From: a virus
Virus record (IMG/VR): IMGVR_UViG_3300010362_000004
Location: 1 to 46,348 of that record
Strand: one strand, 5' to 3'
DNA length: 46,348 nucleotides
Shown here one piece after another: positions 1 to 46,348 of this stretch. A model generated the notes under the pieces. That model had not been told where the DNA came from. It ran no database searches and saw nothing but the letters and a program-made list of their open reading frames with translations. Made by a program: the position numbers and the translations under genes. Positions within the stretch are counted from its first letter, which is position 1, and the number at the start of each line of letters is the position of its first letter.

Positions 1-123
1 CCGTGCAGGCGGGTGCGGTCCCAAACTTCGCGATGGCGCTTATTTCGTATCACATTCACGCGATTTGCTTCCCATGATGCTCGCAGAAGCGGAAGGCAAT
101 GGGCCGGTCGTCACGGACGCCCC
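1..123. repeat. Terminal direct repeat, copy 1 (equals 46226-46348)
   Basis: Read base by base. Bases 1-77 duplicate the 3' end of the tail-fibre gene 45466..46302, including its TGA at 75-77. Confidence 0.9.
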
Positions 124-133
124 GTCGTGAGTC

Positions 134-1747: not shown

Positions 1748-2017
1748 TCAGTCGTTCATCCAGCGCATCCGCGGCTGCATCGGCTGCTGGCTGGGATTGC
1801 GGAATTCCTGCCAGATTTGCCCGTTCGGTCCGAAGGTCGTCGACCCGCCGGGGCGATCGAAGCGCTGATAGATATCGCCATTCGACCCGAAGGTCGTCGA
1901 CCCGCCTGGGCGATCGAACTGCTGATAGATTTGCCCGTCCGGCCCGAAGATGGTGCCATTGGCGAGCGCCAGCGCGGGCATCATCACGAGCAGTGAGAGA
2001 AAAAGAAACGTTTTCAT
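1748..2017 (-). CDS. Secreted tandem-repeat mini-protein (89 aa)
   Basis: SD AAGGAG lies 7 nt upstream. The signal peptide is MKTFLFLSLLVMMPALALA. It has three ~19-aa repeats, FG-x-x-G-x-I-Y/W-Q-x-F-(D)RPGGSTT. Confidence 0.8.
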   Translation of the reverse strand: MKTFLFLSLLVMMPALALANGTIFGPDGQIYQQFDRPGGSTTFGSNGDIYQRFDRPGGSTTFGPNGQIWQEFRNPSQQPMQPRMRWMND

Positions 2018-2157: not shown

Positions 2158-2406
2158 ATGGGTCAGGGGGGTCTTTCGATGTGGCCACTCGTGGTGCAAT
2201 GGACGGTCGCTGTGATTGGCCTGGGGGTACAGGTGTATTGCATCCATCGCGCGTGGCGGAACTGGCAGCGGAGCGAACGTGAGTGCGAGGAGGCGCAGGC
2301 CCATCTTGCGCAGGCTAGCGCGCTCCACGCCGAGCTAGAGGCGATGCTCTGCGAGGTGCGCAGCTGGGATGAGGAGCCGCCAGCCCCGCGGCCGACGATC
2401 CAGTGA
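2158..2406 (+). CDS. Membrane-anchored hypothetical protein (82 aa; alternative start 2179)
   Basis: An N-terminal hydrophobic helix WPLVVQWTVAVIGLGVQVY is followed by a charged helical tail. G-rich SD-like runs lie upstream. Confidence 0.6.
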   Translation: MGQGGLSMWPLVVQWTVAVIGLGVQVYCIHRAWRNWQRSERECEEAQAHLAQASALHAELEAMLCEVRSWDEEPPAPRPTIQ

Positions 2407-2432
2407 GGATTGCGGCAGCATAGGAGGGGGCG

Positions 2433-2780
2433 ATGAGGGTGATGGACACGTTACTGCTGACGCCGAAGGAAGCGGCAGCGCTGCTCGGGCTCACCCCCGA
2501 CGTCCTCGCGGCCCTGCGGCGTGCGGGCATCGGGCCGCGCTACGGCAGGCTTACACCCCGCAGCCGTCCCGTGTATGTGGTGGCCGATCTGGCCATGTGG
2601 GCGGTCGCGATGGGAGCACGCGGCGCCGGGGCCATCACGGCTCTCTGGGGCGTCGTGCGTGACGGCGAGTCTGATCCCGACGTGCTCACGAGCGTCGCTA
2701 TTGCCGGTTCGGACGGTGCGGTGGCACGGTTCGAGGCGACGATGATCGACGCAGCGGGCATGTCCGAGACGCAGCATTGA
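2433..2780 (+). CDS. Helix-turn-helix DNA-binding protein (excisionase/MerR-like HTH)
   Basis: SD AGGAGGGGG. The N-terminal LLTPKEAAALLGLTPDVLAALRRAG is HTH-like. Confidence 0.65.
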   Translation: MRVMDTLLLTPKEAAALLGLTPDVLAALRRAGIGPRYGRLTPRSRPVYVVADLAMWAVAMGARGAGAITALWGVVRDGESDPDVLTSVAIAGSDGAVARFEATMIDAAGMSETQH

Positions 2781-2869
2781 CCCCAGGGCCGGGGCCAGTC
2801 TTGACCCCCCCAGCCCGAGCCGGTACTTTTCCCGTTGCTCCTCTCAGTAGTGAAGGGAGCGTCCCGGTG

Positions 2870-2912
2870 CCAGTGGGAGTAGCTGGGACCTACTCCCCCC
2901 AGCCCCCACTGG
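2870..2912. terminator. Nested hairpin between convergent genes
   Basis: CCAGTGGG-AGTAG, loop, CTACT, bulge, CCCACTGG. Confidence 0.35.
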
Positions 2913-2964
2913 CTGCCGGGATGTCCAGCTGATAGCATCCGCGGCCTTGGCCTGGTGCCTCCCG

Positions 2965-2996
2965 GTGACGGGGGTCAGTCTCGGGGCTCCCGTCAC
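2965..2996. terminator. 8-bp hairpin between convergent genes
   Basis: GTGACGGG, a 16-nt loop, then CCCGTCAC. Confidence 0.3.
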
Positions 2997-3007
2997 AACC
3001 CTCCCGC

Positions 3008-3289
3008 CTAGCGGTGGCTCGGGTGGAGCGCGCGCTCGATTGCCTCGATGCCGGCCCGTAGACAGCGCCGGTACATATCGGGGATGTCCCGTTCCTCGCG
3101 GACGGCCAGCCGCTCGACTGCTTCGACCATCTGTTCCGTGATCCAGAGGCTCAAGCGGACATTGTAGCGCCGGCTGCCCGGTCCCCGACCCCCCCGTCCG
3201 CCCCCACTGCCAGCCCCACCCGTCCCATAGCCCCGAGCGCTCCGGGGCGCCCCACGTCGGTGATCCATACGTGCTCGCTTCGATGGCAC
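3008..3289 (-). CDS. Ribbon-helix-helix (CopG/Arc-like) DNA-binding protein
   Basis: The C-terminal YNVRLSLWITEQMVEAVERLAVREERDIPDMYRRCLRAGIE fits a strand-helix-helix pattern. The N-tail is Gly/Arg-rich. The start is GTG 3289 or ATG 3268. Confidence 0.6.
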   Translation of the reverse strand: MPSKRARMDHRRGAPRSARGYGTGGAGSGGGRGGRGPGSRRYNVRLSLWITEQMVEAVERLAVREERDIPDMYRRCLRAGIEAIERALHPSHR

Positions 3290-3730
3290 AGTGTACTGGC
3301 TCTGTATAGCCCCAAAACAACCAATTTAGTAGTCAAATCGCGGCCTTTTGGCCCTCCTAGGCCACTTCTACCGCCTCCTGTCACTCATTTTGAGGCATTG
3401 TGCCCCATTCCGAGCCCAATTTCGGCCGAAAAGCGCCCCAAACACCCGTTTTCCCAGTCATTTAGCCCAGAATCGGCTTTTGAGGGCTCAAAGGGCCCAT
3501 TTCCCTCAAAACATGCGTTTTTGACTCCCCGACACCTCAAAATAGCCACCGCAGACTCACTGCCCCCCTTCCCCCGCTCAACCTATATGCTCTCATAAGC
3601 CCAGGTCGTACGGCTGTAATACGCCCTAGAGCCCAAACCTCCTAACACCCGCAAAAACACTCCACTTTCTCCATCACTCTATTACCCCCCCATTCAACAA
3701 TGATTCGCCCACTTTATCCAAGATAAATCA

Positions 3731-3758
3731 TTGACAACAAGAAAAAGGATGATAGTAC
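3731..3758 (+). promoter_or_regulatory. Sigma70-like promoter candidate
   Basis: TTGACA, 16 nt, then TAGTAC preceded by a TGa extended -10. Coordinates are +/-1. Confidence 0.4.
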
Positions 3759-4616
3759 CGCGCTCCGCGCCGCAGCCCAAGGCGGCTCTACCCTTCTCCC
3801 GATAGCCGAGACTGTTACTCCCCTCTCCGGTCCCCTGTCCTCCCTTCCTGAAAGGCTTTAGCCTCTAAGAGTACTGTGGTCATCGACCACCGCGCGGCCC
3901 TCCTCCTGCGCGGCCCGCCCATCGTGGTCGATGACCAGCCCCGCCGGCGAGGCGTTTCAGGGGTCCGGTCTTCCTAGACTTGAAAAGGGCCTCGCCGGAC
4001 CTAGAGGCGCCTGTCTCCCGAGGGGGATTCCCTTTTCCCCAAGGGGGAAACCACTGCCCCATCGCCTAGATAGAACTCTACTGCCCCCCAGAGAGCCCTT
4101 CACTGTCTGGGGAAATACGGGCTGGGGCGAGGGCGGGCCCATGGGTCGATCGGGGTACCAGGCCCCCCCTATGTCGCATGCTGCGGCGTCTGCGCTACGA
4201 CCCTCGCATCTGCTAGCGGATTCCCTAGCGGATATGCGCTCTTAGCGCCCCCGGGTGGGCAAAAGCGTCCTTTCCGCCCCTGCAGATGCCTTGTCGACGA
4301 GGCTTGGCACGCGAACTAATCGAGCGACTGTTCGATTAATCGTCTGGGCGAGCGCGGGTATCTCTACCCATTCCCGGGCGGGATTAGGCTGTCAGGATGC
4401 TGTTGCTTGGCTGTTCGATCGAGCATGAGGCGCGGGTTGGGCGAGTGGGGTAGATGCGAGGCGAGCGGCCTGGCAGCTGGGCTAGAATCGGGCGGCCTGA
4501 TTTCCCTGCGTTTGGTCAGCTGACCCTGGGTTAGTGCGAACGTCCGTTGTCAACCCGTTTTCTGGCGTAGGTTGACAAGGCTGGGCTGGGCGGAATCGGA
4601 CTGCGACACAACCGGC

Positions 4617-4656
4617 TTGACGGCTTCGTCTAGCTTGTAGTACGGTTGTAGTACGG
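4617..4656 (+). promoter_or_regulatory. Promoter candidate plus two phased TTGTAGTACGG repeats
   Basis: TTGACG (4617-4622), 15 nt, then TAGTAC (4638-4643). TTGTAGTACGG occurs at 4635-4645 and 4646-4656. Confidence 0.4.
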
Positions 4657-4955
4657 CGAGCAAAGGGACACTGGTCCCGTGCGGCATGGACGCTGGCGAC
4701 TCGCAATAGAAACTTAGAGCCCGGGCCACCGACTCGCATCGTGGCGCATACCCTCAGAGGCAGGGATGAGTAGAGCGCGATGCTGGCAGTTGAGTGGAAG
4801 GGACCGGAGCACAAAGTGGAGACCGGAGGAAGAACTGACGGTCTGTAGGGAAGTGACATGCTCAGACGGCTGCAGGGATGCGGCCGTCTATTGGATGGCA
4901 CTAAGTTTCATCCTCGCAGCGTAATTGGATGCTGCGGAATTGAAGGGAGTAGAGC

Positions 4956-5225
4956 ATGAATCGACCAATGTGTCGCATTTCGGCGTTTGCCGATACTGGC
5001 GTCTGCCGGTGGGAATCATGCGAGCAGACCGCAGCTGCGGCGCCAGAGACGGCCGAGAATGGCCTGTGGTTTTGCTATCAGCTGCAAGTGTGGATTCGGG
5101 ATAGGATCATTTTGCCATGCGCGCATGCCGAACGCGGGCTAGCGCGGATGGGAATTGCCCAAGCCGGCTGCTACGCATGCGCGCATGCGGGGGAAACGCA
5201 TGCGGCGTGCGCACAGTGTCACTGA
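4956..5225 (+). CDS. Cys/His-rich hypothetical protein (89 aa)
   Basis: AAGGGAGTAGAGC lies directly before the ATG. No family recognised. Confidence 0.7.
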   Translation: MNRPMCRISAFADTGVCRWESCEQTAAAAPETAENGLWFCYQLQVWIRDRIILPCAHAERGLARMGIAQAGCYACAHAGETHAACAQCH

Positions 5226-5239
5226 GAAAGAGGCTCGCA

Positions 5240-5407
5240 ATGAAGCAACACGGTTTGCACCCGCCGGCATGCATCTTGTGTGGGCAGTATCTCTTGCCAT
5301 GCACAGTTGAGCCGAACGGCATCCATCCAGATTACAGAGAGCAAAACGCTGATGACGACGATGGTAGTGTGGGATGGTCTCCAGATATGTACGTTCCGAA
5401 TAGCTAG
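5240..5407 (+). CDS. Small hypothetical protein (55 aa)
   Basis: Internal ATG of track ORF 5117..5407 with SD GAAAGAGG. It has a CxxC motif and an acidic tail. Confidence 0.5.
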   Translation: MKQHGLHPPACILCGQYLLPCTVEPNGIHPDYREQNADDDDGSVGWSPDMYVPNS

Positions 5408-5512
5408 AGTCTAGCTCGTGCGCCCGGCTGCGGTCGGGCGCATCATGGTAGCCTCTGAGTGATGGTCTACCGCGGCTGCAATGTCGCAGTCGCTACAAGG
5501 GAGTAGAGAAGC
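5402..5512 (+). repeat. Intergenic multi-hairpin module, copy A
   Basis: Palindrome AGCTAGAGTCTAGCT contains the upstream stop. Hairpins lie at 5419-5442, 5447-5471 and 5472-5493, followed by AAGGGAGTAGAG and the ATG. Confidence 0.7.
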
Positions 5513-6538
5513 ATGGCACATTTAGTTGAGACGCGGGCATATACGTTTAGCAACACGTTATGGCCCGGTCTGGGAACGTACCTCGGAGAGAACGGACTGG
5601 CACTAGAGGATATGATGGAGAAAGCGCACGTCAACTGGACGGTCGGTCTGCAGCGTGTGTACATCCGTGACATGCGGAATACAGACGAGCGCAGTGCAAT
5701 CGAGGTACCGAGCGCACGAGCGATCGTGCGACTGTCAGACAGCAAGCCGCTCGGCATTGCCACCGACAATTACAAGGAAACGCAGAATATCGAGAAGTTT
5801 GCGACGTTTGAGAAAGCAATCGATGGTCGCGCAGTGTGGCGGTCAATGGGCAGTCTGAAGGAGGGGTCGATGGTGTATGGGCTGGCCGAGATTCCGGGCG
5901 ACTGGAAGATTGCTGATGAAGAGCACAAGCGCTACTTGCTGGCGTTGGGCTATCACGACGGGAAGACGGCCGACCATTTCCTCTGCACAAACGTGCGAGT
6001 GGAATGCAACAATACCGCGTCGTTTGCGGTATCGAGCGCAAAGCACGCAAAGGGCGAATTGGCCAAGGGAATCCGAGTCGTGCATCGCGGCGACGTGCAA
6101 GGGAAGCTAGCGGAAGTGAGCGATACCTTTGAGCGCGCGTTAGGCGACTTCAACGGGTACAAGGAGCGCATGGAAGCGCTGACAGCCGTCAAGATGAGCC
6201 GGGATGAGCAGAGAGAAATCCTAGAGCAGATTCTCGACGGGGATTCGTCGCGCTCTGAGAAAGCGCGAGAGACGATCATGCACCTTGCATATCATGGCAA
6301 GGGGAATGCGCCGGTAGCTGGTACGGCGTATGGGTTACTGCAGGGAACGACCGAGTATGTGGACAATTACCGCATGCTCGACACGACACCAGAGCGGCGG
6401 TTTTTCTATCAGACGGACGGGGCGGGCTCGCGGTTGAAGCAGAGGATGGAAGCAACGTTGACGCGGGAATTAACCGCCGTCAATGACACGAGCGGCGTGG
6501 ACGGAGCCGCGGTGCTGGCCGATTTACTGGCCAGCTAG
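5513..6538 (+). CDS. DUF932-like phage/plasmid protein (341 aa)
   Basis: Size and the LCTNVRVECNNTASFA segment resemble the DUF932 (TIGR03299-type) family. This is recalled from memory and not searched. Confidence 0.6.
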   Translation: MAHLVETRAYTFSNTLWPGLGTYLGENGLALEDMMEKAHVNWTVGLQRVYIRDMRNTDERSAIEVPSARAIVRLSDSKPLGIATDNYKETQNIEKFATFEKAIDGRAVWRSMGSLKEGSMVYGLAEIPGDWKIADEEHKRYLLALGYHDGKTADHFLCTNVRVECNNTASFAVSSAKHAKGELAKGIRVVHRGDVQGKLAEVSDTFERALGDFNGYKERMEALTAVKMSRDEQREILEQILDGDSSRSEKARETIMHLAYHGKGNAPVAGTAYGLLQGTTEYVDNYRMLDTTPERRFFYQTDGAGSRLKQRMEATLTRELTAVNDTSGVDGAAVLADLLAS

Positions 6539-6622
6539 AGGCTAGCTTGTATCCCCGGAGCGTAGGCTCCGGGGATACGCTGGTAGCCTTTCGCTACCGA
6601 ATAAACCAAAAGGGAGTAGAGC
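6533..6622 (+). repeat. Intergenic two-hairpin module, copy B
   Basis: AGCTAGAGGCTAGCT, a 13-bp stem hairpin at 6549-6578, a GGTAGC..GCTACC hairpin at 6582-6598, then AAGGGAGTAGAGC and the ATG. Confidence 0.8.
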
Positions 6623-7189
6623 ATGAAACAGAAACGGAAGGCTGGATTTCCCGTGCCGTCCAAGGGCGTCGCATGTCTGCGTGCAGACATACACTGGAAT
6701 CCTGGTTACGGTGGCGAGCCACGTACCGGGCGATTGACACTGCGCTTCGGGACGGTCGATGGATGGGATGGCGAGTGTGGTTCCGGAGCGTATAACGACC
6801 CGCGAGATTATTTCGCCATTACCGCGTATGTCTGCCCAAAACGCGGTATCTACGGATGGGACTGTGGGTATTTGGAAACGTATTTCATCGATGGCCAGGA
6901 TTGCGAAAAGATGGCGCGCGTTTTCAAAGCAGTGGAGCATAGACTGGAAAAACTGTATGCGCAGTGTGGTCAGCGGCCATCCAGTCTCGGCGCATATGTA
7001 ATGCAGGTTGCTGGTGCCATCCAGTGTCAGCAGGTTGTCATCCGAACGGATGACGAGACATATGCACGAACGGGGGAACGGTGGCGATGCCATGCGGCGG
7101 ACATCCCATATGCGGTCGATAGCTGGGCACTAACCATCTTGGCCAACGAGCGCAAGGTGACAGGCATTAGCGGCGAGAACGCTGCATAA
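6623..7189 (+). CDS. Hypothetical protein (188 aa)
   Basis: Conserved RBS motif and protein-like composition. No family recognised. Confidence 0.8.
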   Translation: MKQKRKAGFPVPSKGVACLRADIHWNPGYGGEPRTGRLTLRFGTVDGWDGECGSGAYNDPRDYFAITAYVCPKRGIYGWDCGYLETYFIDGQDCEKMARVFKAVEHRLEKLYAQCGQRPSSLGAYVMQVAGAIQCQQVVIRTDDETYARTGERWRCHAADIPYAVDSWALTILANERKVTGISGENAA

Positions 7190-7273
7190 AGAGGCTAGCT
7201 TATTCCCCCGGCTGCAAGCCGGGGGAATGCTGGTAGTCTCTGACTACCGAAATTCAACTAGGGAGTAGGAACA
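7190..7273 (+). repeat. Intergenic two-hairpin module, copy C
   Basis: AGAGGCTAGCT, an 11-bp stem hairpin at 7202-7228, a GGTAGTC..GACTACC hairpin at 7232-7248, then TAGGGAGTAGGA and the ATG. Confidence 0.8.
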
Positions 7274-7598: not shown

Positions 7599-7622
7599 TA
7601 ACACCGGACCCTGGTAACACCG
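7599..7622. repeat. Two TAACACCG motif copies (16-bp spacing)
   Basis: Copies at 7599-7606 and 7615-7622. The same octamer occurs at 7932-7939 and four times in 8434-8487. Confidence 0.7.
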
Positions 7623-7631
7623 CGGCCGGGT

Positions 7632-7835
7632 TTATTTCGGCGGCTCCTGTTCCTTCAGAAACTTCTCGAAGTCTGTTTTCCATGCCGAGAGAGTCGTCGG
7701 CTCGGCGTGCTTCTTGTCGACGTGGCCTTGATCCCACATTTCCGCGTAGCTGTTCACGAGTCCGTGCAGGGTCTGAATGAACTGCGGCCGTGCCATTGCG
7801 GGGTCGGTTTTCGCAGTCTCGGTCTTCTCCAACAT
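7632..7835 (-). CDS. Hypothetical protein (67 aa), the only reverse-strand gene in the early array
   Basis: Internal ATG of track ORF 7632..7937 preceded by AAGAAAGGGGGG. The sequence is protein-like (MLEKTETAKTDPAMARPQFIQTLHGLVNSYAEMWDQG...). Confidence 0.5.
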   Translation of the reverse strand: MLEKTETAKTDPAMARPQFIQTLHGLVNSYAEMWDQGHVDKKHAEPTTLSAWKTDFEKFLKEQEPPK

Positions 7836-7901
7836 CGGGGGCCCCCCTTTCTTTGGTGCCAGGATAACAGCAGGGGGCGACAAGGACCAGACGCGCCACA
7901 C

Positions 7902-7928
7902 TTGACCAGCGTCATACGTCTGTAGTAC
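7902..7928 (+). promoter_or_regulatory. Promoter candidate
   Basis: TTGACC, 15 nt, then TAGTAC. TGTAGTAC lies at 7921-7928, 43 nt before ATG 7971. Confidence 0.4.
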
Positions 7929-7970
7929 AGATAACACCGGGGCTGGCTAAGGCCCCAAAGGGAGTAGACA

Positions 7971-8309
7971 ATGGCTCGATTGACAATGGAATGCTTCACG
8001 CCAGCGGAGTGCAGCATGCATCGCTGGAACAATCGCGGCTGCGAGCAGGAGCGGAAGGCGATGCAGGTTGTGGCACGGTCGGGAAAACCGGCGGGCTATT
8101 CCTGGCGCCTCTGGCACGATCCCCGGCCGCGGGTCGCGTCGCGGGCGCCGAGCGGTCCGATCCGTGACTGGCGCTATCCGATGGCCGCCTACCGGAATCA
8201 GACCGCATGGAATGCCGTTGACCGCGCATCCTATGAGCGCTGCATCGAGGAATGGGACCACGGCACGCATCCATGGGCCACGTCTGCGCGGGAACGGGAC
8301 GCCGCATGA
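7971..8309 (+). CDS. Hypothetical protein (112 aa)
   Basis: AAGGGAGTAGAC RBS motif. Its stop overlaps the next start (ATGA). Confidence 0.7.
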   Translation: MARLTMECFTPAECSMHRWNNRGCEQERKAMQVVARSGKPAGYSWRLWHDPRPRVASRAPSGPIRDWRYPMAAYRNQTAWNAVDRASYERCIEEWDHGTHPWATSARERDAA

Positions 8310-8482
8310 AGCGCCAGCCGGATCATGTCTGCCCAGATTGCGGTGCGTATTCTCGCTGCCGGCGGTACGCGAACGAGCCGCCGTGTCCCGTGCCGCTCGC
8401 CATCCGCTGCGGCTCGTGCGGGCTCCGAGCGGCTAACACCGGGGCTGGTAACACCGGGGCCGATAACACCGCAGGGAGCTAA
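8306..8482 (+). CDS. Small zinc-ribbon protein (58 aa) with a repeat-encoded tail
   Basis: CPDCG...CGSCG. The C-terminal NTGAGNTGADNTAGS is encoded by the TAACACCG array. Confidence 0.55.
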   Translation: MKRQPDHVCPDCGAYSRCRRYANEPPCPVPLAIRCGSCGLRAANTGAGNTGADNTAGS

Positions 8483-8487
8483 CACCG
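8434..8487 (+). repeat. Four tandem iteron-like repeats (unit TAACACCGGGGCNGG, 15-16 bp period)
   Basis: TAACACCG at 8434, 8449, 8464 and 8480. The array spans the end of one ORF and the RBS region of the next. Confidence 0.8.
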
Positions 8488-8488
8488 G

Positions 8489-8680
8489 ATGGCCACATTG
8501 GAACACAACATCGACCCGATCAGTGAACGCCTCGGACACCTGGACGGCCGATTAGACGGCATTGAGAAACGTCTCGATCTGTTCGAGCGCATCGTATTCC
8601 GCATGATCGGCGGATTGTACGTACTCGTGACACTCGGCTTCAGCGCCTTGGGCTGGCTGATAGTTCACCGGGGAGGATGA
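8489..8680 (+). CDS. Tail-anchored membrane protein with a coiled-coil N-terminus (63 aa)
   Basis: Heptad-like LDGRLDGIEKRLDLFERI is followed by the C-terminal TM segment IGGLYVLVTLGFSALGWLIV. Confidence 0.65.
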   Translation: MATLEHNIDPISERLGHLDGRLDGIEKRLDLFERIVFRMIGGLYVLVTLGFSALGWLIVHRGG

Positions 8681-9477
8681 GAATGGACATTACGAAAACC
8701 GCTGATGGTGACGAGCCACTCATCGGCATGCGTGTGTATCGCTGCCATCCGCAAGACGGCAGCCGCCGCGCTGGGAAAATACGCGGGCCAGTGCTGCGCA
8801 TCACAAAGCTCGGGGACTACGAGAAAACCGGGAATCCTGTGCAGCCGAATGCCGTTGCCGTTCTCCGCACCGTCAAGAACGACCGGCCCGCGGGCACGGA
8901 ATTCGTCTGGAACCTGAAGCGCACACGCGGCGTGCAGCCGACACTGCGGCCCGATGCGATCCCGAAGAAGCTACCGGATCACGATGCATTCGCAGTCAAG
9001 AAACACACGTACGTCCGCTCCTACCGCGTCGACAACGACATGATGCTGCGGCTCTACCAACGCGGCACGGAGTATTCGACCATCATGCGGCGTGATCTGC
9101 ACCGGCTCTACGATCTGCTCGACGCCAGCCGCGAGCGGCTGCTGTTCCCGCCTGGCACACTCGATCTGCTCATCCTCGCCTGGCGCCGGGCCGCGCCGCC
9201 GCCACCGCACAACCAGCTGAAACCGAGCTGGTTCGTTCCGGTGGTCACGGAAGCGCTCAATCATCTGCGGGCCCCGGAAGTAGACAGCCTGCGGGCATTC
9301 ATGGCCACCTGGACACCTCTCGATGCTCTCGCCGTCCTCGATGCCATCGAGCGCCGGCCACCCGAAGCCGTCACCCTGGCCGCCATCCAGCATGCCGGCC
9401 TGCGGGAAGAGCCCGAGAATGCACCCGCGAGCCCGTCTGAGCCGTCCGAGACGCAGGTAGCCCAAGGAGACGCATAA
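8677..9477 (+). CDS. Hypothetical protein (266 aa)
   Basis: ATGA overlap with the upstream gene. It ends 3 nt before the recombinase gene. No family recognised. Confidence 0.8.
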   Translation: MRMDITKTADGDEPLIGMRVYRCHPQDGSRRAGKIRGPVLRITKLGDYEKTGNPVQPNAVAVLRTVKNDRPAGTEFVWNLKRTRGVQPTLRPDAIPKKLPDHDAFAVKKHTYVRSYRVDNDMMLRLYQRGTEYSTIMRRDLHRLYDLLDASRERLLFPPGTLDLLILAWRRAAPPPPHNQLKPSWFVPVVTEALNHLRAPEVDSLRAFMATWTPLDALAVLDAIERRPPEAVTLAAIQHAGLREEPENAPASPSEPSETQVAQGDA

Positions 9478-9480: not shown

Positions 9481-10455
9481 ATGTCCGAGCCCCAGACCGC
9501 GCCTACGGTGGCAAAACTGGCCATTCCTGTGCCCACTCGCCACCTGCAGCTGGTTCCGGCCCAGTGTGCCGCCACGGCCTACCTGGCCACTTTGGCCCCC
9601 CGGTCTCGCGAGACGCAGGTTGCCGCACTCCGGACGATCTGCCGCCTGATTGTGGGAGCGACAGCCGAGCCGGCAACGTTCCCGTGGGAAGAGATGACCT
9701 ATGCCCATGCGGCAGCGCTGCGACAACGGTTGTCGGAACTGTACGCACCGGCTACGACGAATCGGCTGCTGGCCGCCTGGCGTGGCGTGCTGCGGGCCGC
9801 GTGGCGGCTCGGGCGGATATCGGATACCGTCTATCTGCGTGCGGTCGACGTGAAGGACGTGCGGGGCAGTGATATGCTCCGGGGTCGCGCGCTGCCGGCA
9901 GACGAACGGACTGCCCTGTTTGCCCATACGGCCAGCGATCCGCGTCCAGTGGGCCGCCGGGATGGGGCGATACTCGTTTGCCTGTACGGCTGCGGGCTCA
10001 GGCGTGCGGAAGCCGCCAGCCTGACAGCCGCTGATGTGACGTCGGACGGGCTCCGGGTGCGCGGCAAGGGTGGCAAGGTGCGCGTCGTTCCGATTCCGCC
10101 GAGCTTCGTTCCGGTATTCGAGCACTACGTTTCACTGCTGCCAGGAAACGGTCCGCTCTTGCGGGCGATCGATCCACAATCGGGCATGCTGACCGAACGC
10201 GGGCTGACGGCATCGGGCATCCGGAAAGCGCTCGGGGTGCGGGTGCATGCCTGCCGGCTCGGCACCACGACACCGCACGATCTGCGCCGGAGCTACATCA
10301 CCGATCTACTCGGCCATGGGGTCGACCCCCTGACGGTGGCGTCACTGGCTGGGCATGCGCGGCTCGATACGACGCGGAAGTACGACCACCGACCGCATGC
10401 GGCGCGAGTCGCGGCCGTTGCGGTACTCGGAAAGGAGCCATCAGATGGCGCATAA
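9481..10455 (+). CDS. Tyrosine recombinase, XerC/D-like
   Basis: Catalytic signature present: GLRRAEA (Arg), TPHDLRRSY (H-x-x-R) and GHARLDTTRKYDH (His/Tyr). Confidence 0.9.
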   Translation: MSEPQTAPTVAKLAIPVPTRHLQLVPAQCAATAYLATLAPRSRETQVAALRTICRLIVGATAEPATFPWEEMTYAHAAALRQRLSELYAPATTNRLLAAWRGVLRAAWRLGRISDTVYLRAVDVKDVRGSDMLRGRALPADERTALFAHTASDPRPVGRRDGAILVCLYGCGLRRAEAASLTAADVTSDGLRVRGKGGKVRVVPIPPSFVPVFEHYVSLLPGNGPLLRAIDPQSGMLTERGLTASGIRKALGVRVHACRLGTTTPHDLRRSYITDLLGHGVDPLTVASLAGHARLDTTRKYDHRPHAARVAAVAVLGKEPSDGA

Positions 10456-13716: not shown

Positions 13717-14178
13717 TCAACTTTGCGAAGGGCTGCTCACCTCTGCCTGCAGCCATTCCTGCCAGCACGCTTCCCGCACCCGGGGATCGACTGGGCCCTT
13801 CCCTTCCGCCCACAGTACCGCCCGCCAGGTCCGCTCGAACACGGGACGCATCGGGCCCTGGCAGGAATGCTCGGCTTCCCAGGCATCGAGTGCCTGATGC
13901 ACGCGATAGAAGATGCGCTGCCGCCCCGGGCCATCCAGCCCCTCGTTCGCGGTGTAGTCTCCGGTCGTGAGCGCTCGCAGGTCTCGTGGGCTGGGCAGCT
14001 TGCCCGTCGGCTCGATCCGCCGGGCCAGCGACTCGATCGCGACCCGCAGTCGGAGCCAGTCGACGTCGTGCAGGACGCGGAAGTATAGCTCGGCAGTCTC
14101 CGCAGGAATGCGGCGCCCCAAGATGCCACCGAGCCCGGAGAGTGCTGCAGCGAACGGCTGGAACTCGGCATCGATCAT
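13717..14178 (-). CDS. Hypothetical protein (153 aa)
   Basis: Internal ATG of the track ORF, with an ATGA overlap with the upstream gene. Confidence 0.7.
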   Translation of the reverse strand: MIDAEFQPFAAALSGLGGILGRRIPAETAELYFRVLHDVDWLRLRVAIESLARRIEPTGKLPSPRDLRALTTGDYTANEGLDGPGRQRIFYRVHQALDAWEAEHSCQGPMRPVFERTWRAVLWAEGKGPVDPRVREACWQEWLQAEVSSPSQS

Positions 14179-14861
14179 TTCTGCCCCCACAGTTCTCGGA
14201 TGCGCTCGTGCGCTCGCTCGCGCTCGCGTTCCTCGCGGCTCCTTCTCGGTGGCGAGGGTCGATCCTCCCATTGCCGCTGCCGGAGAAACGTCGCGGGATT
14301 CTCAAGGAAGCCCTCGCGCCAGGAATCACTCTGCTGCCAGCGCTCGATGCCCGCCAGGATGGCCGGGAGATGGAACGCACCACCGACCCGAATCCATGCC
14401 CGCAGTGCCTCGGGCTTGTGACACGGCTTCGGATAGTGCTTCCAAAATTCCTCAAAGCCGTGCGTGCTTCTCGGGGGCCCTTTTCCGCTGCCCCAATCTG
14501 GCCGCAGGCGGAAAGGCTCCGCTACCGCAGGGGTCGGCTCCAGAATCTGACCGTCAAATTCTGGCTGCAGCACCCCGTTGTGTAGGTGGTCCCGCCAGTC
14601 ATGCACCACCACGCGGCACTGCTGGTCCGGATCGAGCCAGCGAGTCATCAGCAGGGCATCGATCAACTCGCTGGCCGAGCGCTGCCAGCCAATTCCCGCT
14701 GCGATCACCGCGTCGGTATGGCGCCCGATATCCCCCTCCGGGGCATAGAGCGCCGTCCACTGCCAGAGCGATTCGAGGACGCCGACTGCTCCCCAGGCTT
14801 CCAGGCCGAGCGCCTGGGCGAGCGCCCGCATCTTCGGATGCATCGGGGTGCCAGGCTTCAT
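14175..14861 (-). CDS. Putative replication-associated protein (function tentative)
   Basis: 228 aa. The FEEFWKHYPKP...EALRAWIRV motif resembles those seen in phage replication-organizer or DnaD-like proteins. This is memory-based only. Confidence 0.5.
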   Translation of the reverse strand: MKPGTPMHPKMRALAQALGLEAWGAVGVLESLWQWTALYAPEGDIGRHTDAVIAAGIGWQRSASELIDALLMTRWLDPDQQCRVVVHDWRDHLHNGVLQPEFDGQILEPTPAVAEPFRLRPDWGSGKGPPRSTHGFEEFWKHYPKPCHKPEALRAWIRVGGAFHLPAILAGIERWQQSDSWREGFLENPATFLRQRQWEDRPSPPRRSREERERERAHERIRELWGQK

Positions 14862-15488: not shown

Positions 15489-15566
15489 TAAAAACCGCGT
15501 TTTCCGGGGTACGCAGACGCTGTAGCGTTTGGTCGCTAGGTCCGCGAAGTCACTGCAAAATCTGAG

Positions 15567-15608
15567 TGCGCCCAGGCTGATTCGAACAGCCGACCTTCTG
15601 ATTCGTAG
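15567..15608 (-). other. attP core candidate: 3' half of a tRNA-Arg(ACG)-like gene
   Basis: The minus strand reads CTACGAA-TCAGA-AGGTC-GGCTGTTCGAATCAGCC-TGGGCGC-A. That is anticodon loop, stem 3' strand, variable loop, T-arm, acceptor 3' strand and discriminator. The 5' sequence does not pair, so the tRNA is partial. Confidence 0.65.
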
Positions 15609-15660
15609 TTGTAAGGGAACGCGGCGAAAAGTACCTAGAGAATCGCGTAGTTGCGAAGTA

Positions 15661-16842
15661 TCAACGCGCGCTGTCCGCACGGCTGTCCGCAGCCAAGCGC
15701 TCCAAGTAGTCCGCTGCTTTAGGATTCCGCAAGCGGACGGTGGCCCCGTAGGTGTCGACCGTGACCTTGATCGAGGAGTGGCCGAGTTGCTGCTGCACCC
15801 ACTGGATGACGTCACGCTCCATGGTCTGCAGGTGAAGTGTCGCGAACGTGTGCCGGAGCGAGTGCATCGTGAAGCCGTGTCCATCAAGCTTCGCCTGCGT
15901 GAGCACGCGAGCGAATTCCCGCTGCACATTGCGGCTCCCGAGTGGCGTCCCGTTGCGGCTCACGAAGAGCCATGGCGGCACCGGCCGCCAGCCCCGCGCC
16001 ACGGCCAGCTGCGAGCGGCCCTGGATGATCTCCCCGAGCACGCGGATCAACCGGTCGGTCAGGTCCACGATGCGATCACGGCCCGTCTTCGTCTGCCGTA
16101 GCAAAGGCGCGCGGCTGCACTCCTGGGCCAGTGAGACCGTGACGAGCCCCTCGCGGGTCTCCAGCTGGACGTGGGGAATCTGCCAGGCTCGCAGTTCACT
16201 GACCCGCATCCCGGTATCGATGCCGGCCAGGAACAACGCCTGCAGCCCAGACGCCCGAGCCGCCTTCTCGAACCGACCGAGCTGCTCACTCGTCATCGCC
16301 GGCCGGACGACGTTGCTCCGAGAAATGAGCTTCCGGATTGTCTTGCTCGGATCGGACAGTGGATTGAGCGCCAGCACCTCATCCTCGGTCGCCTCGCTCA
16401 GCATGGCCCGCAGCGCCGCGAACATGAGCCGGACGGTATCGGGTGCGAAGCCGGCGTTTCGCTTGGCCACGACGAGCGCCTTGGCGTGCGCCTTCGAGAC
16501 GGCCGACAAGCGCATGGTGCCGATTTTCTGCGATCCGATTTGGAACGGCAGGACGTGCTGCTGCAGCAGGTCGTTGTAGGACCGCCAGGTCTTCGGGGCC
16601 CAGACGTCTCGATTGCTCGTGAGCCAGTGCGCGGCATAGGCTGCCACGTTCTCGGACGCATCGGGCGGTAGGCTCGGCTCCAAGGTGATCGCCGCCTGCT
16701 CCTGCAGCCGGGCAGCGTGACGATTGGCCGCCTCTTCCGTCTCGAAATACTTTGAGCGGCGCACGCCATAGGGGTCGCGCCACTCCACGAGATAACGCAC
16801 CTCACCCCGCACGCGGCAGCGGGTGACTTTGCCGAACGCCAT
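15661..16842 (-). CDS. int: Tyrosine integrase
   Basis: TGMRVSELR (Arg), HSLRHTF (H-x-x-R) and LGHSSIKVTVDTYG (His/Tyr). It is adjacent to the tRNA-like attP core. Confidence 0.92.
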   Translation of the reverse strand: MAFGKVTRCRVRGEVRYLVEWRDPYGVRRSKYFETEEAANRHAARLQEQAAITLEPSLPPDASENVAAYAAHWLTSNRDVWAPKTWRSYNDLLQQHVLPFQIGSQKIGTMRLSAVSKAHAKALVVAKRNAGFAPDTVRLMFAALRAMLSEATEDEVLALNPLSDPSKTIRKLISRSNVVRPAMTSEQLGRFEKAARASGLQALFLAGIDTGMRVSELRAWQIPHVQLETREGLVTVSLAQECSRAPLLRQTKTGRDRIVDLTDRLIRVLGEIIQGRSQLAVARGWRPVPPWLFVSRNGTPLGSRNVQREFARVLTQAKLDGHGFTMHSLRHTFATLHLQTMERDVIQWVQQQLGHSSIKVTVDTYGATVRLRNPKAADYLERLAADSRADSAR

Positions 16843-16845: not shown

Positions 16846-17220
16846 CTACTCCCTTTTGACCCATGCCTTCGCTGGTCGCCCCCGATGTCGTGGGGGCGCG
16901 GCGATGGGTCCGTTGGGAGGAACATACCCGGGCACCAGTGGGACGACAACCTGGCTCCGTCCGCCCACTTCCATCATCCGGCGCTGCCAATCCAGGTACT
17001 CTCCGACCGTCGTCCGCTTGTCCTTGCCGTTGCCGAACGTGCGGAGCCGACGCGGATCGCTCGGATGCAGGCGGGCGTACTTCTGCACCTGGCGTAGGTC
17101 CCAGCCGAGCAGCAGAGCGACATCATCGAGGGCCAGGACGTGACGCGGGTTAGTCAGCTGCGCTTCGAGGAACGTGAGACGGTCGCCCGTCTCAACAGCT
17201 GCACCCCCGATATCAGCCAT
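16846..17220 (-). CDS. Excisionase-like / recombination directionality factor candidate
   Basis: It lies directly upstream of int on the same strand. VLALDDVALLLGWDLRQVQKYAR is HTH-like. Confidence 0.5.
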   Translation of the reverse strand: MADIGGAAVETGDRLTFLEAQLTNPRHVLALDDVALLLGWDLRQVQKYARLHPSDPRRLRTFGNGKDKRTTVGEYLDWQRRMMEVGGRSQVVVPLVPGYVPPNGPIAAPPRHRGRPAKAWVKRE

Positions 17221-17483
17221 GAGCGGAAGGGTCGCTTATTCTCCCGCACGCTCGTACTGTCAACGGGGAAATGCTTTCCAATGGTTTCTTTCCACCTCCG
17301 GGGGATGGTACTAGATGGCAGCGAAACGTAGCGAAAGGGGTCCGGCTGGCGCTAACTGCTGCCGGGTATCCACTTCCATCCCGTACTTTTTTCTTGACAC
17401 TGGCGGAAAATCGACTACGGGGAAAGAGACCCGTCACGCATCCCCCGGAACATTTCCCGACTCCGACGGGCTGGGGATTGGAC

Positions 17484-17825
17484 ATGGCATCAGCATCCAA
17501 TGCAGCGTGGCCGCGGAATATCGTGCAGCAGTTTTCCCGGCTGGAACGCGCCTACAAGAAACGCCAGCGGAAGCCGACGGCAAAGGCCGCACGGAAGCTC
17601 GCGGACTTGCTCGCTGACGGTGTGTCACCGCGCGGCCACGGCAAGATTCTGACGGTCAAACAGGTCGCGCATGAGCTTCAGATGAGTACCAAGTCGGTCT
17701 ATCAACACGCCCCCGAGTGGCCCTTCATGCACCGAATCCCTGGGTCCACGATATATCGCGGGCATGCGGACGAACTCGATGAATGGATCAGAAAACTCCC
17801 CCCGTCCCATCGCGGACGCGGATGA
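17484..17825 (+). CDS. HTH DNA-binding protein (AlpA/excisionase-family-like)
   Basis: Internal ATG of the track ORF. ILTVKQVAHELQMSTKSVYQH is HTH-like. It is divergent from the xis-int pair. Confidence 0.6.
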   Translation: MASASNAAWPRNIVQQFSRLERAYKKRQRKPTAKAARKLADLLADGVSPRGHGKILTVKQVAHELQMSTKSVYQHAPEWPFMHRIPGSTIYRGHADELDEWIRKLPPSHRGRG

Positions 17826-45466: not shown

Positions 45467-46302
45467 TGCGTGCCTACGGCATCACGAACGCGGCCCCGTA
45501 CGCGAACGCGCCAGCGGTCGGCGCATCGGGCGACACGTACTGGAATACCACCGATCAGTCGCTCTATGTCTCGAACGGCACGGCCTGGGTCAAGGCCGGG
45601 CCAGGCGCGGGCGGTCCCCCGTCGGGGACAGCGGGCGGCGACCTCACGGGGAGCTACCCGAATCCGACCATTGCTGCGAATGCGGTCGGCAACGCGGAGA
45701 TTTCCGACGTCGCGTGGGCCAAGGTCACGGGCGCACCGACGAGTCTACCGCCCTCGGGTGCGGCGGGTGGTAGCCTCGCCGGCACGTATCCGAATCCGTC
45801 CATTGCAGCACTGGCCGTGTCGGCAGCTAACCTCGCGGTGCGAACGGCACCGTACGGGTACGCCTTTGGGGGTTCGTTCAATGCACAATGGAACTGGCCC
45901 ATGGACGGGAATTGGTACGCGGCGGCATCGTGCCAACCAACGTTACTCGATACCAACGCGCGGTTAGTGCTCGTGTTGGGTGTGATTATTGCCCATGTGC
46001 AGTGTACATCCCAACCTGCAAGCGCGTTCGGGTTCAATGTCGCAACGCGGCTCTACAAGGGCGGCACCTGGGGACAACCGGACGGGACAACGTTAGCGGA
46101 TACGTTCTCCGCGTTTGGGACGGGATTTGCGCTCAACACAATCAACGGCCTGTACTGGCATTTTACGCACATTCTGCCGTTCTTGGATACGCCGTCTGGC
46201 GGCGGCTCACCGATCTACAAGGTCGCCGTGCAGGCGGGTGCGGTCCCAAACTTCGCGATGGCGCTTATTTCGTATCACATTCACGCGATTTGCTTCCCAT
46301 GA
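45466..46302 (+). CDS. Tail fibre protein paralogue (279 aa)
   Basis: ATGA overlap start. GGDLTGSYPNPTIAANAV and GGSLAGTYPNPSIAALAV repeats. The 3' end lies in the terminal repeat. Confidence 0.75.
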   Translation: MRAYGITNAAPYANAPAVGASGDTYWNTTDQSLYVSNGTAWVKAGPGAGGPPSGTAGGDLTGSYPNPTIAANAVGNAEISDVAWAKVTGAPTSLPPSGAAGGSLAGTYPNPSIAALAVSAANLAVRTAPYGYAFGGSFNAQWNWPMDGNWYAAASCQPTLLDTNARLVLVLGVIIAHVQCTSQPASAFGFNVATRLYKGGTWGQPDGTTLADTFSAFGTGFALNTINGLYWHFTHILPFLDTPSGGGSPIYKVAVQAGAVPNFAMALISYHIHAICFP

Positions 46303-46348
46303 TGCTCGCAGAAGCGGAAGGCAATGGGCCGGTCGTCACGGACGCCCC
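46226..46348. repeat. Terminal direct repeat, copy 2 (equals 1-123)
   Basis: Same 123 nt as the window start. This is an assembly overlap or terminal redundancy. Confidence 0.9.

What the first reader, a model, noticed from the sequence alone, without database searches (positions are those of the whole stretch)
3290..4955. A 1.65-kb stretch with no credible ORF in a tightly packed genome: candidate long ncRNA, origin or immunity control region
Elsewhere genes overlap or are separated by a few nt. Here the only track ORFs (3260..3598, 3931..4245, 4482..4901) are Pro/Ser/Arg-rich and lack an RBS. The left third (about 3300-3760) is lower in GC and strongly C-rich and G-poor on the + strand. One 60-nt stretch near 3660 has about 27 C and 2 G by my count, which is typical of Rho-utilisation-type RNA. 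A promoter-like TTGACA-N16-TGaTAGTAC at 3731-3758 points rightward into about 850 nt of GC-rich sequence full of mutually exclusive inverted repeats. One example is CCGGCGAGGC...GCCTCGCCGG versus GGTCCGG...CCGGACC at about 3943-4010. A second promoter-like site at 4617 precedes a ~310-nt structured leader before the gene at 4956. I could not recognise any known RNA family by eye.
Basis: partly seen in the sequence, partly recalled or inferred. Interest (0 to 1): 0.65.

Follow-up and report, generated by a model that had tools for sequence, protein, structure and literature searches.

The report
Long gene-free control region in phage
A 1.65-kb gene-free stretch in a soil phage genome is real, and a related phage has one in the same place; it looks like the promoter and terminator region in front of a block of accessory genes, with no evidence for a long structured RNA or a replication origin.

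Summary
Window 3290-4955 is the largest gene-free gap of a circular ~46.2-kb temperate phage genome. No frame shows coding potential, and translated searches found nothing. Positions 3480-3760 have the lowest GC and the strongest C-over-G bias in the genome (35 C, 3 G in 78 nt).

The motif TTGAC-N16/17-TAGTAC occurs three times (3731, 4617, 7902), all on the + strand, against 0.00 expected.

One true relative was found (IMG/VR 3300010046_000001). It has a 1155-nt ORF-free stretch at the same position, in front of a different cargo operon that also ends in the shared g264 and Xer-like integrase genes. Two parts are conserved in sequence: a ~230-nt core (4077-4305) and the tandem GTAGTAC boxes at the second promoter.

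My best reading is a composite untranslated control region. It would combine promoters and operators for the accessory operon, a Rho-utilisation-like insulator tract, and a conserved cis element of unknown role.

Other readings fare worse:
- **Long structured RNA:** unproven. Rfam found nothing, stable folding is only local, and two sequences cannot show covariation.
- **Origin, attP, decayed gene:** not supported. The attP (a tRNA-Arg fragment) and the replication initiator gene lie elsewhere.

Moderate-to-low interest.

The parts
3008..3268 (-). Left flank. An 86-aa gene with a weak ribbon-helix-helix (RHH) resemblance and an RGG-rich N-terminus. It is transcribed away from the region, and its promoter must lie inside the region.
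   Evidence: Called gene. Codon score +0.14. Pfam RHH_1 matches the full domain, but at E=0.079, below the cut-off. No relatives among 5.8 billion proteins. A single-sequence AlphaFold2 model gave two helices and is inconclusive. Absent from the related phage.
3290..3760 (+). Low-GC tract, extremely C-rich and G-poor on the + strand, resembling a Rho-utilisation (rut) site.
   Evidence: Genome-wide extremes of GC (48%) and GC skew (-0.60). 78-nt C/G ratio up to 11.7, against a 99th percentile of 2.3. No coding periodicity. The relative has a weaker C-rich tract at the same relative position (max C/G 3.7), with no significant sequence homology (z 0.9).
3388..3542 (.). Cluster of four TTTTGAGG boxes (two on +, two on -) around the 12-bp palindrome TTTCGGCCGAAA (3420-3431). 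Candidate protein-binding sites near the start of the RHH-like gene.
   Evidence: All 4 genomic copies of the 8-mer lie within these 155 nt, against 0.59 expected in the whole window. Palindrome. Binding is inferred, not shown.
3731..3758 (+). P1: TTGACA-N16-TAGTAC, embedded in the most AT-rich 40-mer of the genome. The opposite strand reads TTGGGC-N17-TACTAT, so its direction is ambiguous.
   Evidence: Not found in the relative. The tool's standard sigma-70 scan does not call it, because the -10 hexamer ends in C.
3877..3937 (+). Perfect 14-bp inverted repeat with a 33-nt spacer. It can equally be read as two copies of the palindrome TGGTC-N3-GACCA. It could be an RNA hairpin and pause site just after the C-rich tract, or a pair of operators.
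   Evidence: repeat I5. Fold z -3.9. The only two exact matches to the pattern in the window. Not conserved in the relative.
4077..4305 (+). Conserved core. This is the only long part of the stretch with sequence homology to the related phage. It includes the 35-nt G-run block at 4119-4152, 86% identical to the relative, and an imperfect hairpin centred on TGGGTCGATCG.
   Evidence: nhmmer E=6.8e-7. Local alignment z 9.3 against shuffles. tblastx matches fall in all frames and contain stops, and there is a 1-nt indel inside the block, so it is not coding. Both versions fold into a similar hairpin. RNAalifold gives 32 pairs, 7 of them with both sides changed, but this rests on two sequences only.
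4317..4338 (.). Inverted repeat TAATCGA-N8-TCGATTA, the only two copies of this 7-mer in the genome. Possibly a protein-binding or recombinase-type core site.
   Evidence: Function is inferred only.
4547..4579 (.). Inverted repeat TTGTCAACC-N14-GGTTGACAA, 40 nt upstream of P2. Operator-like.
   Evidence: Fold not significant (z -1.6).
4617..4656 (+). P2: TTGACG-N15-TAGTAC, with an 11-nt tandem repeat TTGTAGTACGG x2.
   Evidence: (repeat D16). TGTAGTAC occurs 4 times against 0.13 expected, always in intergenic DNA. The relative has GTAGTACGGGTGTAGTA at the start of its operon's first ORF, matching 16 of 17 positions; that ORF's first ATG overlaps the second box and a second in-frame ATG lies about 12 nt downstream. 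Local alignment z 4.3.
4657..4955 (+). Untranslated leader of about 300 nt from P2 to the first gene. It holds hairpins at 4864-4887 and 4916-4935, and then the phage's shared ribosome-binding region AAGGGAGTAGAGCATG at 4943.
   Evidence: Fold z -3.5 to -5.2. Shared ribosome-binding region. Not conserved in the relative, where the promoter boxes abut the first gene. The 52-aa ORF at 4766-4924 scores as non-coding (-0.30).
4956..5225 (+). Right flank. The first gene of the accessory operon, an 89-aa Cys-rich product.
   Evidence: Called gene. It shares an identical 18-nt ribosome-binding and start region with the gene at 6623. Coding potential is poor, about 0.
7902..7928 (+). P3: third copy of the TTGAC-N16-TAGTAC promoter-like motif, 43 nt upstream of the gene at 7971. 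It lies outside the finding but belongs to the same signal set.

Best explanation
The stretch is a genuinely untranslated, composite control region. It separates the late and lysis genes (+ strand, ending at 2780) from a rightward accessory operon: g89, g55, the DUF932 gene and further genes, ending in g264 and the Xer-like integrase int324.

**Shown**
- The stretch is ORF-free.
- A related phage has an ORF-free stretch of similar size at the same position.
- Two parts are conserved in sequence: a 230-nt core and the tandem GTAGTAC boxes.

**Inferred mechanism**
1. P2 (4617-4656) is the operon's main promoter. Its TAGTAC element acts as the -10 region, and the 11-nt tandem repeat is the site where a regulator sits.
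2. The extreme C-rich, G-poor tract (about 3480-3875), followed by the strong hairpin at 3877-3937, works as a Rho-dependent terminator. It would stop untranslated + strand transcripts, either read-through from the late operon or transcripts from P1, before they reach the accessory operon.
3. The TTTTGAGG cluster and the palindromes are binding sites for regulators, possibly the adjacent RHH-like protein. That protein's own promoter must lie in the left part of the stretch.
4. The conserved core is a cis element of unknown role, either a regulator platform or a leader-RNA hairpin.
For: **No coding capacity**
- Codon and frame-plot tests are negative.
- Translated searches found nothing.

**Position conserved in a true relative**
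- The relative shares terminase at 76%, portal 75%, major capsid protein 79%, int324 59% and g264 45% amino-acid identity.
- It has a 1155-nt ORF-free stretch in front of an unrelated cargo operon that also ends in g264-int324.
- Core homology: E=6.8e-7 and z 9.3. Tandem boxes: z 4.3.

**Promoter motif is non-random**
- 3 matches against 0.00 expected, all on the + strand and all heading transcription units.
- TAGTAC (6 of 6 copies) and TGTAGTAC (4 of 4 copies) occur only in non-coding DNA.
- A GTAGTAC box is also conserved upstream of the terminase-side operon in both phages.

**Rut criteria of RhoTermPredict (PMC6407284)**
- C/G ratio well above 1 over more than 78 nt.
- A GC-rich hairpin within 150 nt downstream.
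- The RNA is untranslated.
Against: - There is no transcript data, so no promoter or terminator has been shown to work.
- The -10 hexamer TAGTAC lacks the usual final T, and a standard sigma-70 scan finds no site.
- P1, the hairpin at 3877-3937 and the extreme C bias are not conserved in the relative, so they may be incidental or specific to this phage.
- Two hairpins in the convergent gap 2781-3007 could already terminate late transcription (read by eye). That would make a Rho insulator unnecessary.
- The RHH assignment is weak (E=0.079).
- The function of the conserved core is unknown.
- About 860 nt between P1 and P2 is more than a simple promoter-operator region needs.
Confidence: 0.55

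Rival explanations
1. A regulatory non-coding RNA. P1 would drive an untranslated transcript running rightward from about 3765. It could be short, ending at the 3877-3937 hairpin, or long, reaching the conserved core. It would act as a leader or riboregulator of the accessory operon, for example through conditional termination.
For: - P1 carries the same non-random motif as P2 and P3, and no translatable ORF follows it for 1.2 kb.
- The + strand folds better than the - strand over 3760-4620 (z -2.4 against -0.9).
- Mean local z is -1.26 here against -0.35 genome-wide.
- The conserved core folds into a similar hairpin in both phages, with some double changes.
Against: - Rfam found nothing at E<5 in either phage.
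- Significant folding is limited to three spots, and 4300-4700 is at background level.
- P1 and its first 300 nt are not conserved in the relative.
- Evidence from two sequences is circular.
- The idea that the CU-rich 5' part pairs specifically with the operon's ribosome-binding sites was tested. The operon's genes do not stand out.
Confidence: 0.2
2. Mostly functionless spacer. Cargo swapping at this hot spot left non-coding debris between a few functional signals (the P2 boxes and perhaps the core).
For: - The cargo on both sides differs completely between the two phages. RHH and DUF932 are absent from the relative.
- The lengths differ (1666 against 1155 nt), and most of the stretch is not alignable.
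- The neighbouring small genes g89 and g55 also have poor coding statistics.
Against: - No translated similarity to anything was found.
- The compositional bias is the most extreme in the genome and strand-specific, which decayed genes do not explain.
- Phage genomes usually lose useless DNA, yet both phages keep more than 1.1 kb here.
Confidence: 0.12
3. Recombination site or platform for the Xer-like integrase int324. That gene closes the operon and is conserved together with the core. This would make the locus a cassette-exchange or secondary attachment site.
For: - The core, g264 and int324 are the conserved frame around variable cargo.
- Spaced inverted repeats typical of recombinase core sites exist, for example TAATCGA-N8-TCGATTA.
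- Structured elements with conserved outer arms follow several cargo genes in both phages.
Against: - int324 is a generic Xer-like recombinase. It scores 49 bits on the integron-integrase model against a cut-off of 265.
- No tRNA or host-gene fragment lies in the stretch.
- The phage's attP is at 15565-15609, next to int393.
- TAATCGA-N8-TCGATTA lies outside the well-aligned blocks.
Confidence: 0.08
4. Replication origin, either iteron/AT-rich type or primed by an R-loop from a G-rich leftward transcript.
For: - The most AT-rich 40-mer of the genome is at 3711-3755.
- A clustered 8-mer repeat is present.
- A leftward transcript through 3760-3290 would be very G-rich.
Against: - The extremes of cumulative skew lie elsewhere.
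- There are no DnaA boxes and no long direct iterons.
- The initiator-like gene is 10 kb away, and in lambda-like phages the origin lies inside that gene (established knowledge).
- The AT-rich spot and the 8-mer cluster are not conserved in the relative.
Confidence: 0.05

Closest known systems
Early-operon control regions of lambdoid phages (promoter, untranslated leader with a rut site, Rho-dependent terminator such as lambda tR1)
   Same: A promoter is followed by untranslated, C-rich, G-poor RNA and a pause hairpin in front of a block of genes. The region sits between functional modules of a temperate phage.
   Different: No nut/boxA/boxB sequences and no N-like antiterminator were identified. 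The stretch is several times longer. The main immunity switch of this phage is elsewhere (17220-17484). Rho dependence is untested.
Satellite phage P4 immunity leader (CI RNA processed from the leader, pairing with seqA and seqC to cause termination)
   Same: A long untranslated leader at the head of an operon, with internal complementary segments (3823-3835 against 4798-4830).
   Different: The complementarity is only 10-13 nt, which chance would give in 1.7 kb of GC-rich DNA. It is not conserved in the relative. There is no evidence of a processed RNA.
Large phage-associated non-coding RNAs in Rfam (GOLLD, ROOL, HEARO)
   Same: A long ORF-free stretch in a temperate phage genome.
   Different: No covariance-model match at E<5 in either phage. 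Only about 230 nt are conserved. There is no pervasive thermodynamic structure.
Moron or accessory-gene hot spots of temperate phages (such as the lambda b region), each with its own promoter and terminator
   Same: The location between late/lysis genes and an integrase. The cargo is completely different in two related phages. The locus has its own promoter signals.
   Different: Here the cargo is a long operon preceded by more than 1 kb of non-coding DNA with a conserved core, and it is closed by a second, conserved tyrosine recombinase.

Membership tests
Any Rfam RNA family | Covariance-model score at or above the family's gathering threshold | tested here: not met
   No matches at gathering thresholds over the whole window. 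At E<5 over 2900-5300 the only hit is a spurious one inside g89. Nothing credible in the relative's stretch.
Rho-dependent terminator (RhoTermPredict criteria, PMC6407284) | RNA tract of at least 78 nt with C/G ratio above 1 and frequent C | tested here: met
   C/G ratio above 2 continuously over 3483-3875, peaking at 11.7 (35 C, 3 G). This is the top of the genome distribution. Criteria taken.
Rho-dependent terminator (RhoTermPredict criteria, PMC6407284) | Pause hairpin within 150 nt downstream, and RNA free of ribosomes | tested here: met
   Hairpin at 3877-3937, z -3.9. No credible ORF in the tract.
Rho-dependent terminator (RhoTermPredict criteria, PMC6407284) | Transcript 3' ends that depend on Rho | not testable with these tools
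   This needs term-seq with and without bicyclomycin, or in vitro termination. The host is uncultured. The tRNA-Arg attP core matches MAGs labelled Binatia, Limnocylindria and 'delta proteobacterium'.
Sigma-70-type promoter | -35 TTGACA and -10 TATAAT (A at position 2, T at position 6) spaced 16-18 nt apart | tested here: inconclusive
   The -35 element matches 6 of 6 at P1 and 5 of 6 at P2 and P3. The -10 hexamer TAGTAC fails the T6 rule, so the standard scan finds no sites. The composite motif is nevertheless far beyond chance, and the boxes are conserved in the relative, where the second box reads TAGTAT.
Iteron or theta-type replication origin | Several direct repeats of 17-22 bp, DnaA boxes, an AT-rich unwinding element, an adjacent initiator gene and a skew switch | tested here: not met
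   Only an AT-rich 40-mer and an 8-mer cluster are present. There are no DnaA boxes and no long iterons. The initiator-like gene is at 14175-14861. The skew extremes are at 8715 and 41930.
Phage attachment site (attP) of a tyrosine integrase | Core identical to a host sequence, typically the 3' part of a tRNA gene, next to the integrase gene | tested here: not met
   No tRNA-like fragment lies in the stretch. The attP with 45 nt of tRNA-Arg(ACG) is at 15565-15609, beside int393, and matches three MAGs exactly. A site for int324 cannot be excluded.
Protein-coding gene or pseudogene | Open frame with coding statistics, or translated similarity to known proteins, or an intact gene at the same place in relatives | tested here: not met
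   Coding scores are negative. There were no hits to 5.8 billion proteins; sensitivity for very short proteins is uncertain there, because the window's own 45-aa and 52-aa ORFs were not returned. PHROGs and GenBank phages by tblastn also gave nothing. The relative is ORF-free here too, and conserved segments carry stops in every frame.
Integron (platform with intI, attI and Pc, plus cassettes with attC) | Integron-type integrase | tested here: not met
   int324 scores 49 bits on TIGR02249 (cut-off 265) and 32 bits on NF011946 (cut-off 435). It looks like a generic Xer-type recombinase.
Structured long non-coding RNA (generic) | Conserved secondary structure supported by covariation | tested here: inconclusive
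   Only two homologous sequences exist. There are 7 of 32 pairs with double changes, but the structure was derived from the same two sequences.

The most novel reading that the evidence does not exclude
The ORF-free stretch could be the fixed platform of a cassette-like accessory-gene array carried by a group of soil phages. The platform would supply the promoter and a conserved 230-nt core. Variable cargo genes would be inserted between this platform and a conserved Xer-like recombinase (g264-int324). Several cargo genes are followed by a stem-loop element with conserved outer arms and a variable centre, which would act as cassette boundaries. This would be analogous to an integron without being one.
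Probability: 0.05. Interest if true: 0.8.

Novelty: new member of a known kind. Interest (0 to 1): 0.33.

Why it matters
If the reading is right, this is an ordinary kind of thing: a phage regulatory intergenic region with promoter, operator and terminator. It occurs in an almost unsampled phage lineage of uncultured soil bacteria.

It is useful mainly in three ways:
- It is a worked example that a long ORF-free stretch need not be an RNA gene.
- It gives a first view of promoter signals (TTGAC-N16/17-TAGTAC/T) in this lineage.
- It marks a hot spot where accessory genes are exchanged.

The conserved 230-nt core and the intercistronic stem-loop family are the parts that could still hold something new. 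They are worth revisiting when more relatives or metatranscriptomes are available.

Tried and rejected
**Searches for DNA relatives**
1. blastn of the region against GenBank phages and PLSDB plasmids found nothing.
2. Relatives sought through flanking proteins:
   - The DUF932 protein has only three close homologs in 5.8 billion proteins. Their contigs are too short or unrelated upstream.
   - The RHH-like protein matches only itself.
   - The tail-fibre-like p407 gave 46 IMG/VR loci, but blastn of window 2401-5600 against them found nothing at E<=1e-3. One of those loci, L022, later proved to be part of the true relative, whose 35-nt block fell below that threshold.
   - The 188-aa gene gave nothing.
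   - g264 finally gave the one true relative.
3. DNA pattern scans of IMG/VR gave only chance hits or the same relative. The patterns were the tandem box, the intercistronic element and the core block.

**Hypotheses tested and dropped**
4. An anti-Shine-Dalgarno RNA. The CU-rich RNA downstream of P1 does not pair better with the operon's ribosome-binding sites than with those of other genes.
5. Long C-rich upstream regions as a general feature of DUF932 operons. This is not borne out in L006 and L007.
6. An inverted duplication flanking the 2.8-11 kb module. There is no protein or meaningful DNA similarity.
7. A conserved G-quadruplex in the 35-nt block. The window has six G-runs, but the relative needs a 9-nt loop, and such motifs are not rare in this genome, with 9 found. 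I leave this as a weak idea.
8. An integron. The integrase test failed.
9. A copy of the intercistronic stem-loop element inside the finding. There is none.

**Inconclusive**
10. A single-sequence structure model of the RHH-like protein.
Full report
**Context**

The window is a circular genome of about 46.2 kb. Its first 124 nt recur at 46225. It comes from an ENA soil metagenome contig, and an identical copy exists in a second sample.

It is a temperate tailed phage. It has a terminase, an SU10-type portal and an SU10-type major capsid protein. It also has an endolysin, a replication-initiator-like gene at 14175-14861 and two tyrosine recombinases, int324 at 9481-10455 and int393 at 15661-16842.

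The classical lysogeny module lies around int393:
- A 45-nt 3' fragment of tRNA-Arg(ACG) sits at 15565-15609, directly after the int393 stop codon. This is the attP core.
- It matches exactly the tRNA-Arg genes of two MAGs, labelled Binatia and Limnocylindria, and two tRNA-fragment copies in a third MAG labelled 'delta proteobacterium' (no intact tRNA gene was called in that 8-kb locus). The third also carries an int393 homolog beside the repeated att copies.
- The divergent gap at 17220-17484 is the likely main switch.

So the finding lies in a different module. That module holds an RHH-like gene on the minus strand (3008-3268), then the ORF-free stretch, then a rightward operon. The operon runs g89, g55, DUF932/TIGR03299 (5513-6538), further genes, g264 and int324.

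**Check of the observation**

The stretch is the largest gene-free gap in the genome. Gene calls leave 1281 nt empty, against 466 nt for the next gap.

Several tests find no coding capacity:
- A six-frame sliding version finds no positive frame between 3540 and 4500.
- The GC frame plot is flat in the left third.
- A scan for starts with a Shine-Dalgarno sequence finds nothing convincing.

Positions 3480-3760 hold both the lowest-GC windows and the most C-skewed windows of the whole genome. The 78-nt C/G ratio peaks at 11.7, against a 99th percentile of 2.3.

Both promoter-like sites are present. The claim that the GC-rich part is full of inverted repeats is only partly right:
- Against dinucleotide shuffles, significant folding is limited to about 3850-3945, 4200-4345 and 4790-4935.
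- Positions 4300-4700 are at the genome background level.
- Perfect palindromes are not clearly enriched.

**Signals inside the stretch**

The composite motif TTGAC-N16/17-TAGTAC occurs three times in the window, against 0.00 expected. All three copies are on the + strand: 3731 (P1), 4617 (P2) and 7902 (P3).
- P2 heads a 300-nt leader to g89.
- P3 lies 43 nt before the gene at 7971.
- P1 heads 1.2 kb with no translatable frame.

All six TAGTAC hexamers and all four TGTAGTAC octamers of the genome lie in non-coding DNA; 0.13 octamers were expected. These include the main switch region (17308) and the divergent region in front of the terminase-side operon (37534).

At P2 the box is an 11-nt tandem repeat, TTGTAGTACGG x2. 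I read TAGTAC/T as the -10-like element of this phage group's promoters, and the repeat as a likely regulator site. This is an inference. The standard sigma-70 scan rejects these sites because the hexamer ends in C.

Other non-random features:
- All four genomic copies of TTTTGAGG fall within 155 nt next to the RHH-like gene's start.
- The pair TGGTC-N3-GACCA at 3877 and 3925 together forms the strongest hairpin.
- The most AT-rich 40-mer of the genome lies in the P1 spacer.

**Homology searches**

Nucleotide searches of GenBank phages and plasmids found nothing. Translated searches also found nothing:
- the six-frame translation against 5.8 billion proteins (with a caveat on very short proteins);
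- PHROGs;
- tblastn against GenBank phages.

Rfam found nothing at gathering thresholds or at E<5.

The flanking cargo genes are near-orphans. One true relative was found through g264: IMG/VR contig 3300010046_000001, circular, 44.5 kb. It shares these proteins with the window:

| Protein | Amino-acid identity |
|---|---|
| Terminase | 76% |
| Portal | 75% |
| Major capsid protein | 79% |
| int324 | 59% |
| int393 | 48% |
| g264 | 45% |

**What the relative shows**

At the equivalent position the relative has a 1155-nt stretch without credible ORFs. It lies after the lysis-side + strand genes and before a rightward operon that ends in g264-int324. Its cargo is entirely different: small acidic proteins, no RHH and no DUF932.

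Segment-wise local alignment against shuffled controls gives a clear split:
- The central core (window 4077-4305) is homologous: z 9.3, nhmmer E=6.8e-7, with a 35-nt block at 86% identity.
- The segment with the tandem boxes is also homologous: z 4.3, with GTAGTACGGTTGTAGTA against GTAGTACGGGTGTAGTA. In the relative the boxes sit at the very start of the operon's first ORF: its first ATG overlaps the second box, and a second in-frame ATG lies about 12 nt further on.
- The C-rich tract is not homologous in sequence (z 0.9). The relative has only a milder C bias there, with a maximum C/G ratio of 3.7.
- P1, the 3877-3937 hairpin and the 300-nt leader are not conserved.

tblastx matches in the core fall in all frames and contain stops, and the best block has a 1-nt indel. 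The conservation is therefore at the DNA or RNA level.

Both cores fold into a similar imperfect hairpin centred on TGGGTCGATCG. RNAalifold on the two sequences gives 32 pairs, 7 of them with changes on both sides. With two sequences and a structure derived from them, this is not independent evidence.

A GTAGTAC box is also conserved upstream of the terminase-side operon in both phages.

**Interpretation**

The best-supported reading is a composite untranslated control region in front of an exchangeable accessory operon.
- **Shown:** it is ORF-free, its position is conserved, and the core and the promoter boxes are conserved in sequence.
- **Inferred:** P2 is the operon promoter, with a regulator site in the tandem repeat.
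- **Inferred:** the C-rich, G-poor tract plus the downstream hairpin is a Rho-dependent terminator. It meets the published sequence criteria.
- **Inferred:** the clustered boxes and palindromes are regulator sites.

The role of the conserved core is unknown. A structured long RNA remains possible but has little positive support. The origin, attP and pseudogene readings each failed specific tests, as set out in the membership table.

**Verdict**

It is most likely a new example of a known kind of element in a poorly sampled phage lineage.

Interest is moderate to low (0.33). The residual novelty lies in the conserved core, and in the possibility that core, stem-loop elements and Xer-like recombinase together form a cassette-exchange locus. 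I put that possibility at about 5%.

Noticed in passing
window 15565-15609 (- strand), next to int393 at 15661-16842: A 45-nt 3' fragment of tRNA-Arg(ACG) lies in the 372-nt gap after the integrase stop codon. This is the phage attP core. It matches exactly the tRNA-Arg genes of MAGs labelled Binatia and Limnocylindria, and fragment copies in a MAG labelled 'delta proteobacterium', which gives a clue to the host.
   Followed up: yes
L171 2442-4528 (MAG CAWFFN010000007.1): This MAG carries three copies of the att/tRNA-Arg fragment within 1.2 kb, and an int393 homolog (66% nucleotide identity) beside one of them. That suggests tandem or remnant integrations of related elements at this tRNA.
   Followed up: partly
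window 5402-5473, 6533-6606, 7186-7258 (+); L162 120-193 and 1232-1304; L174 3212-3286: A family of intercistronic stem-loop elements lies directly after the stop codons of cargo genes. The outer arms (AGAGGCTAGC / GCTGGTAGCCTCT) are conserved and the GC-rich inner stem is variable. A second small hairpin follows (GGTAGC..GCTACC). Eleven of 21 pairs show compensatory changes across 5 copies. The flanks are about 100% identical in a relative whose coding DNA is 68% identical. A diverged copy follows an unrelated cargo gene in the related phage (E=8e-5).
   Followed up: partly
window 4943, 5497, 6610, 7958, 16845(-), 37566, 20224: A shared, unusually long ribosome-binding region, AAGGGAGTAGA(G/C), precedes the first genes of several transcription units, including int393 and the late operon. 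It is identical over 18 nt at 4943 and 6610.
   Followed up: partly
window 7600-8490: The motif TAACACCG(G) is repeated seven times. Four copies form tandem 15-16-nt repeats at 8434-8490, immediately before the start codon of the gene at 8489. This looks like an iteron or operator array.
   Followed up: no
window 4956-5407: The first two called genes after the finding, g89 and g55, have codon scores near zero. g89 contains two copies of the palindromic 13-mer CATGCGCGCATGC, 60 nt apart (5116 and 5176). The effectively non-coding zone might therefore extend to 5512.
   Followed up: partly
window 37534 (-) and 17308 (-): Further TAGTAC boxes lie in the divergent region between the terminase-side operon and the late operon, and in the main switch region. 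The first is conserved in the related phage (position 1267, minus strand, on my joined sequence of the relative's contig).
   Followed up: partly
window 1802-1954, inside gene 1748-2017 (-): Three tandem 57-nt repeats encode a repeated peptide motif (FGPxGxIYQxFDRPGGSTT) in an 89-aa secreted-looking protein of the lysis region.
   Followed up: no
L007 9540-9720 (upstream of a DUF932 gene in an unrelated phage contig): A 990-nt gene-free region with arrays of short repeats: GAGAGATTAG-like units, and ATGTGGTCGTCAT four times. Long repeat-rich upstream regions may be common for DUF932 operons, but there is no sequence similarity to the window.
   Followed up: partly
window 1-124 and 46225-46348: A terminal direct repeat that comes from the assembly of a circular genome. 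The related IMG/VR contig has a 123-nt terminal overlap as well.
   Followed up: yes
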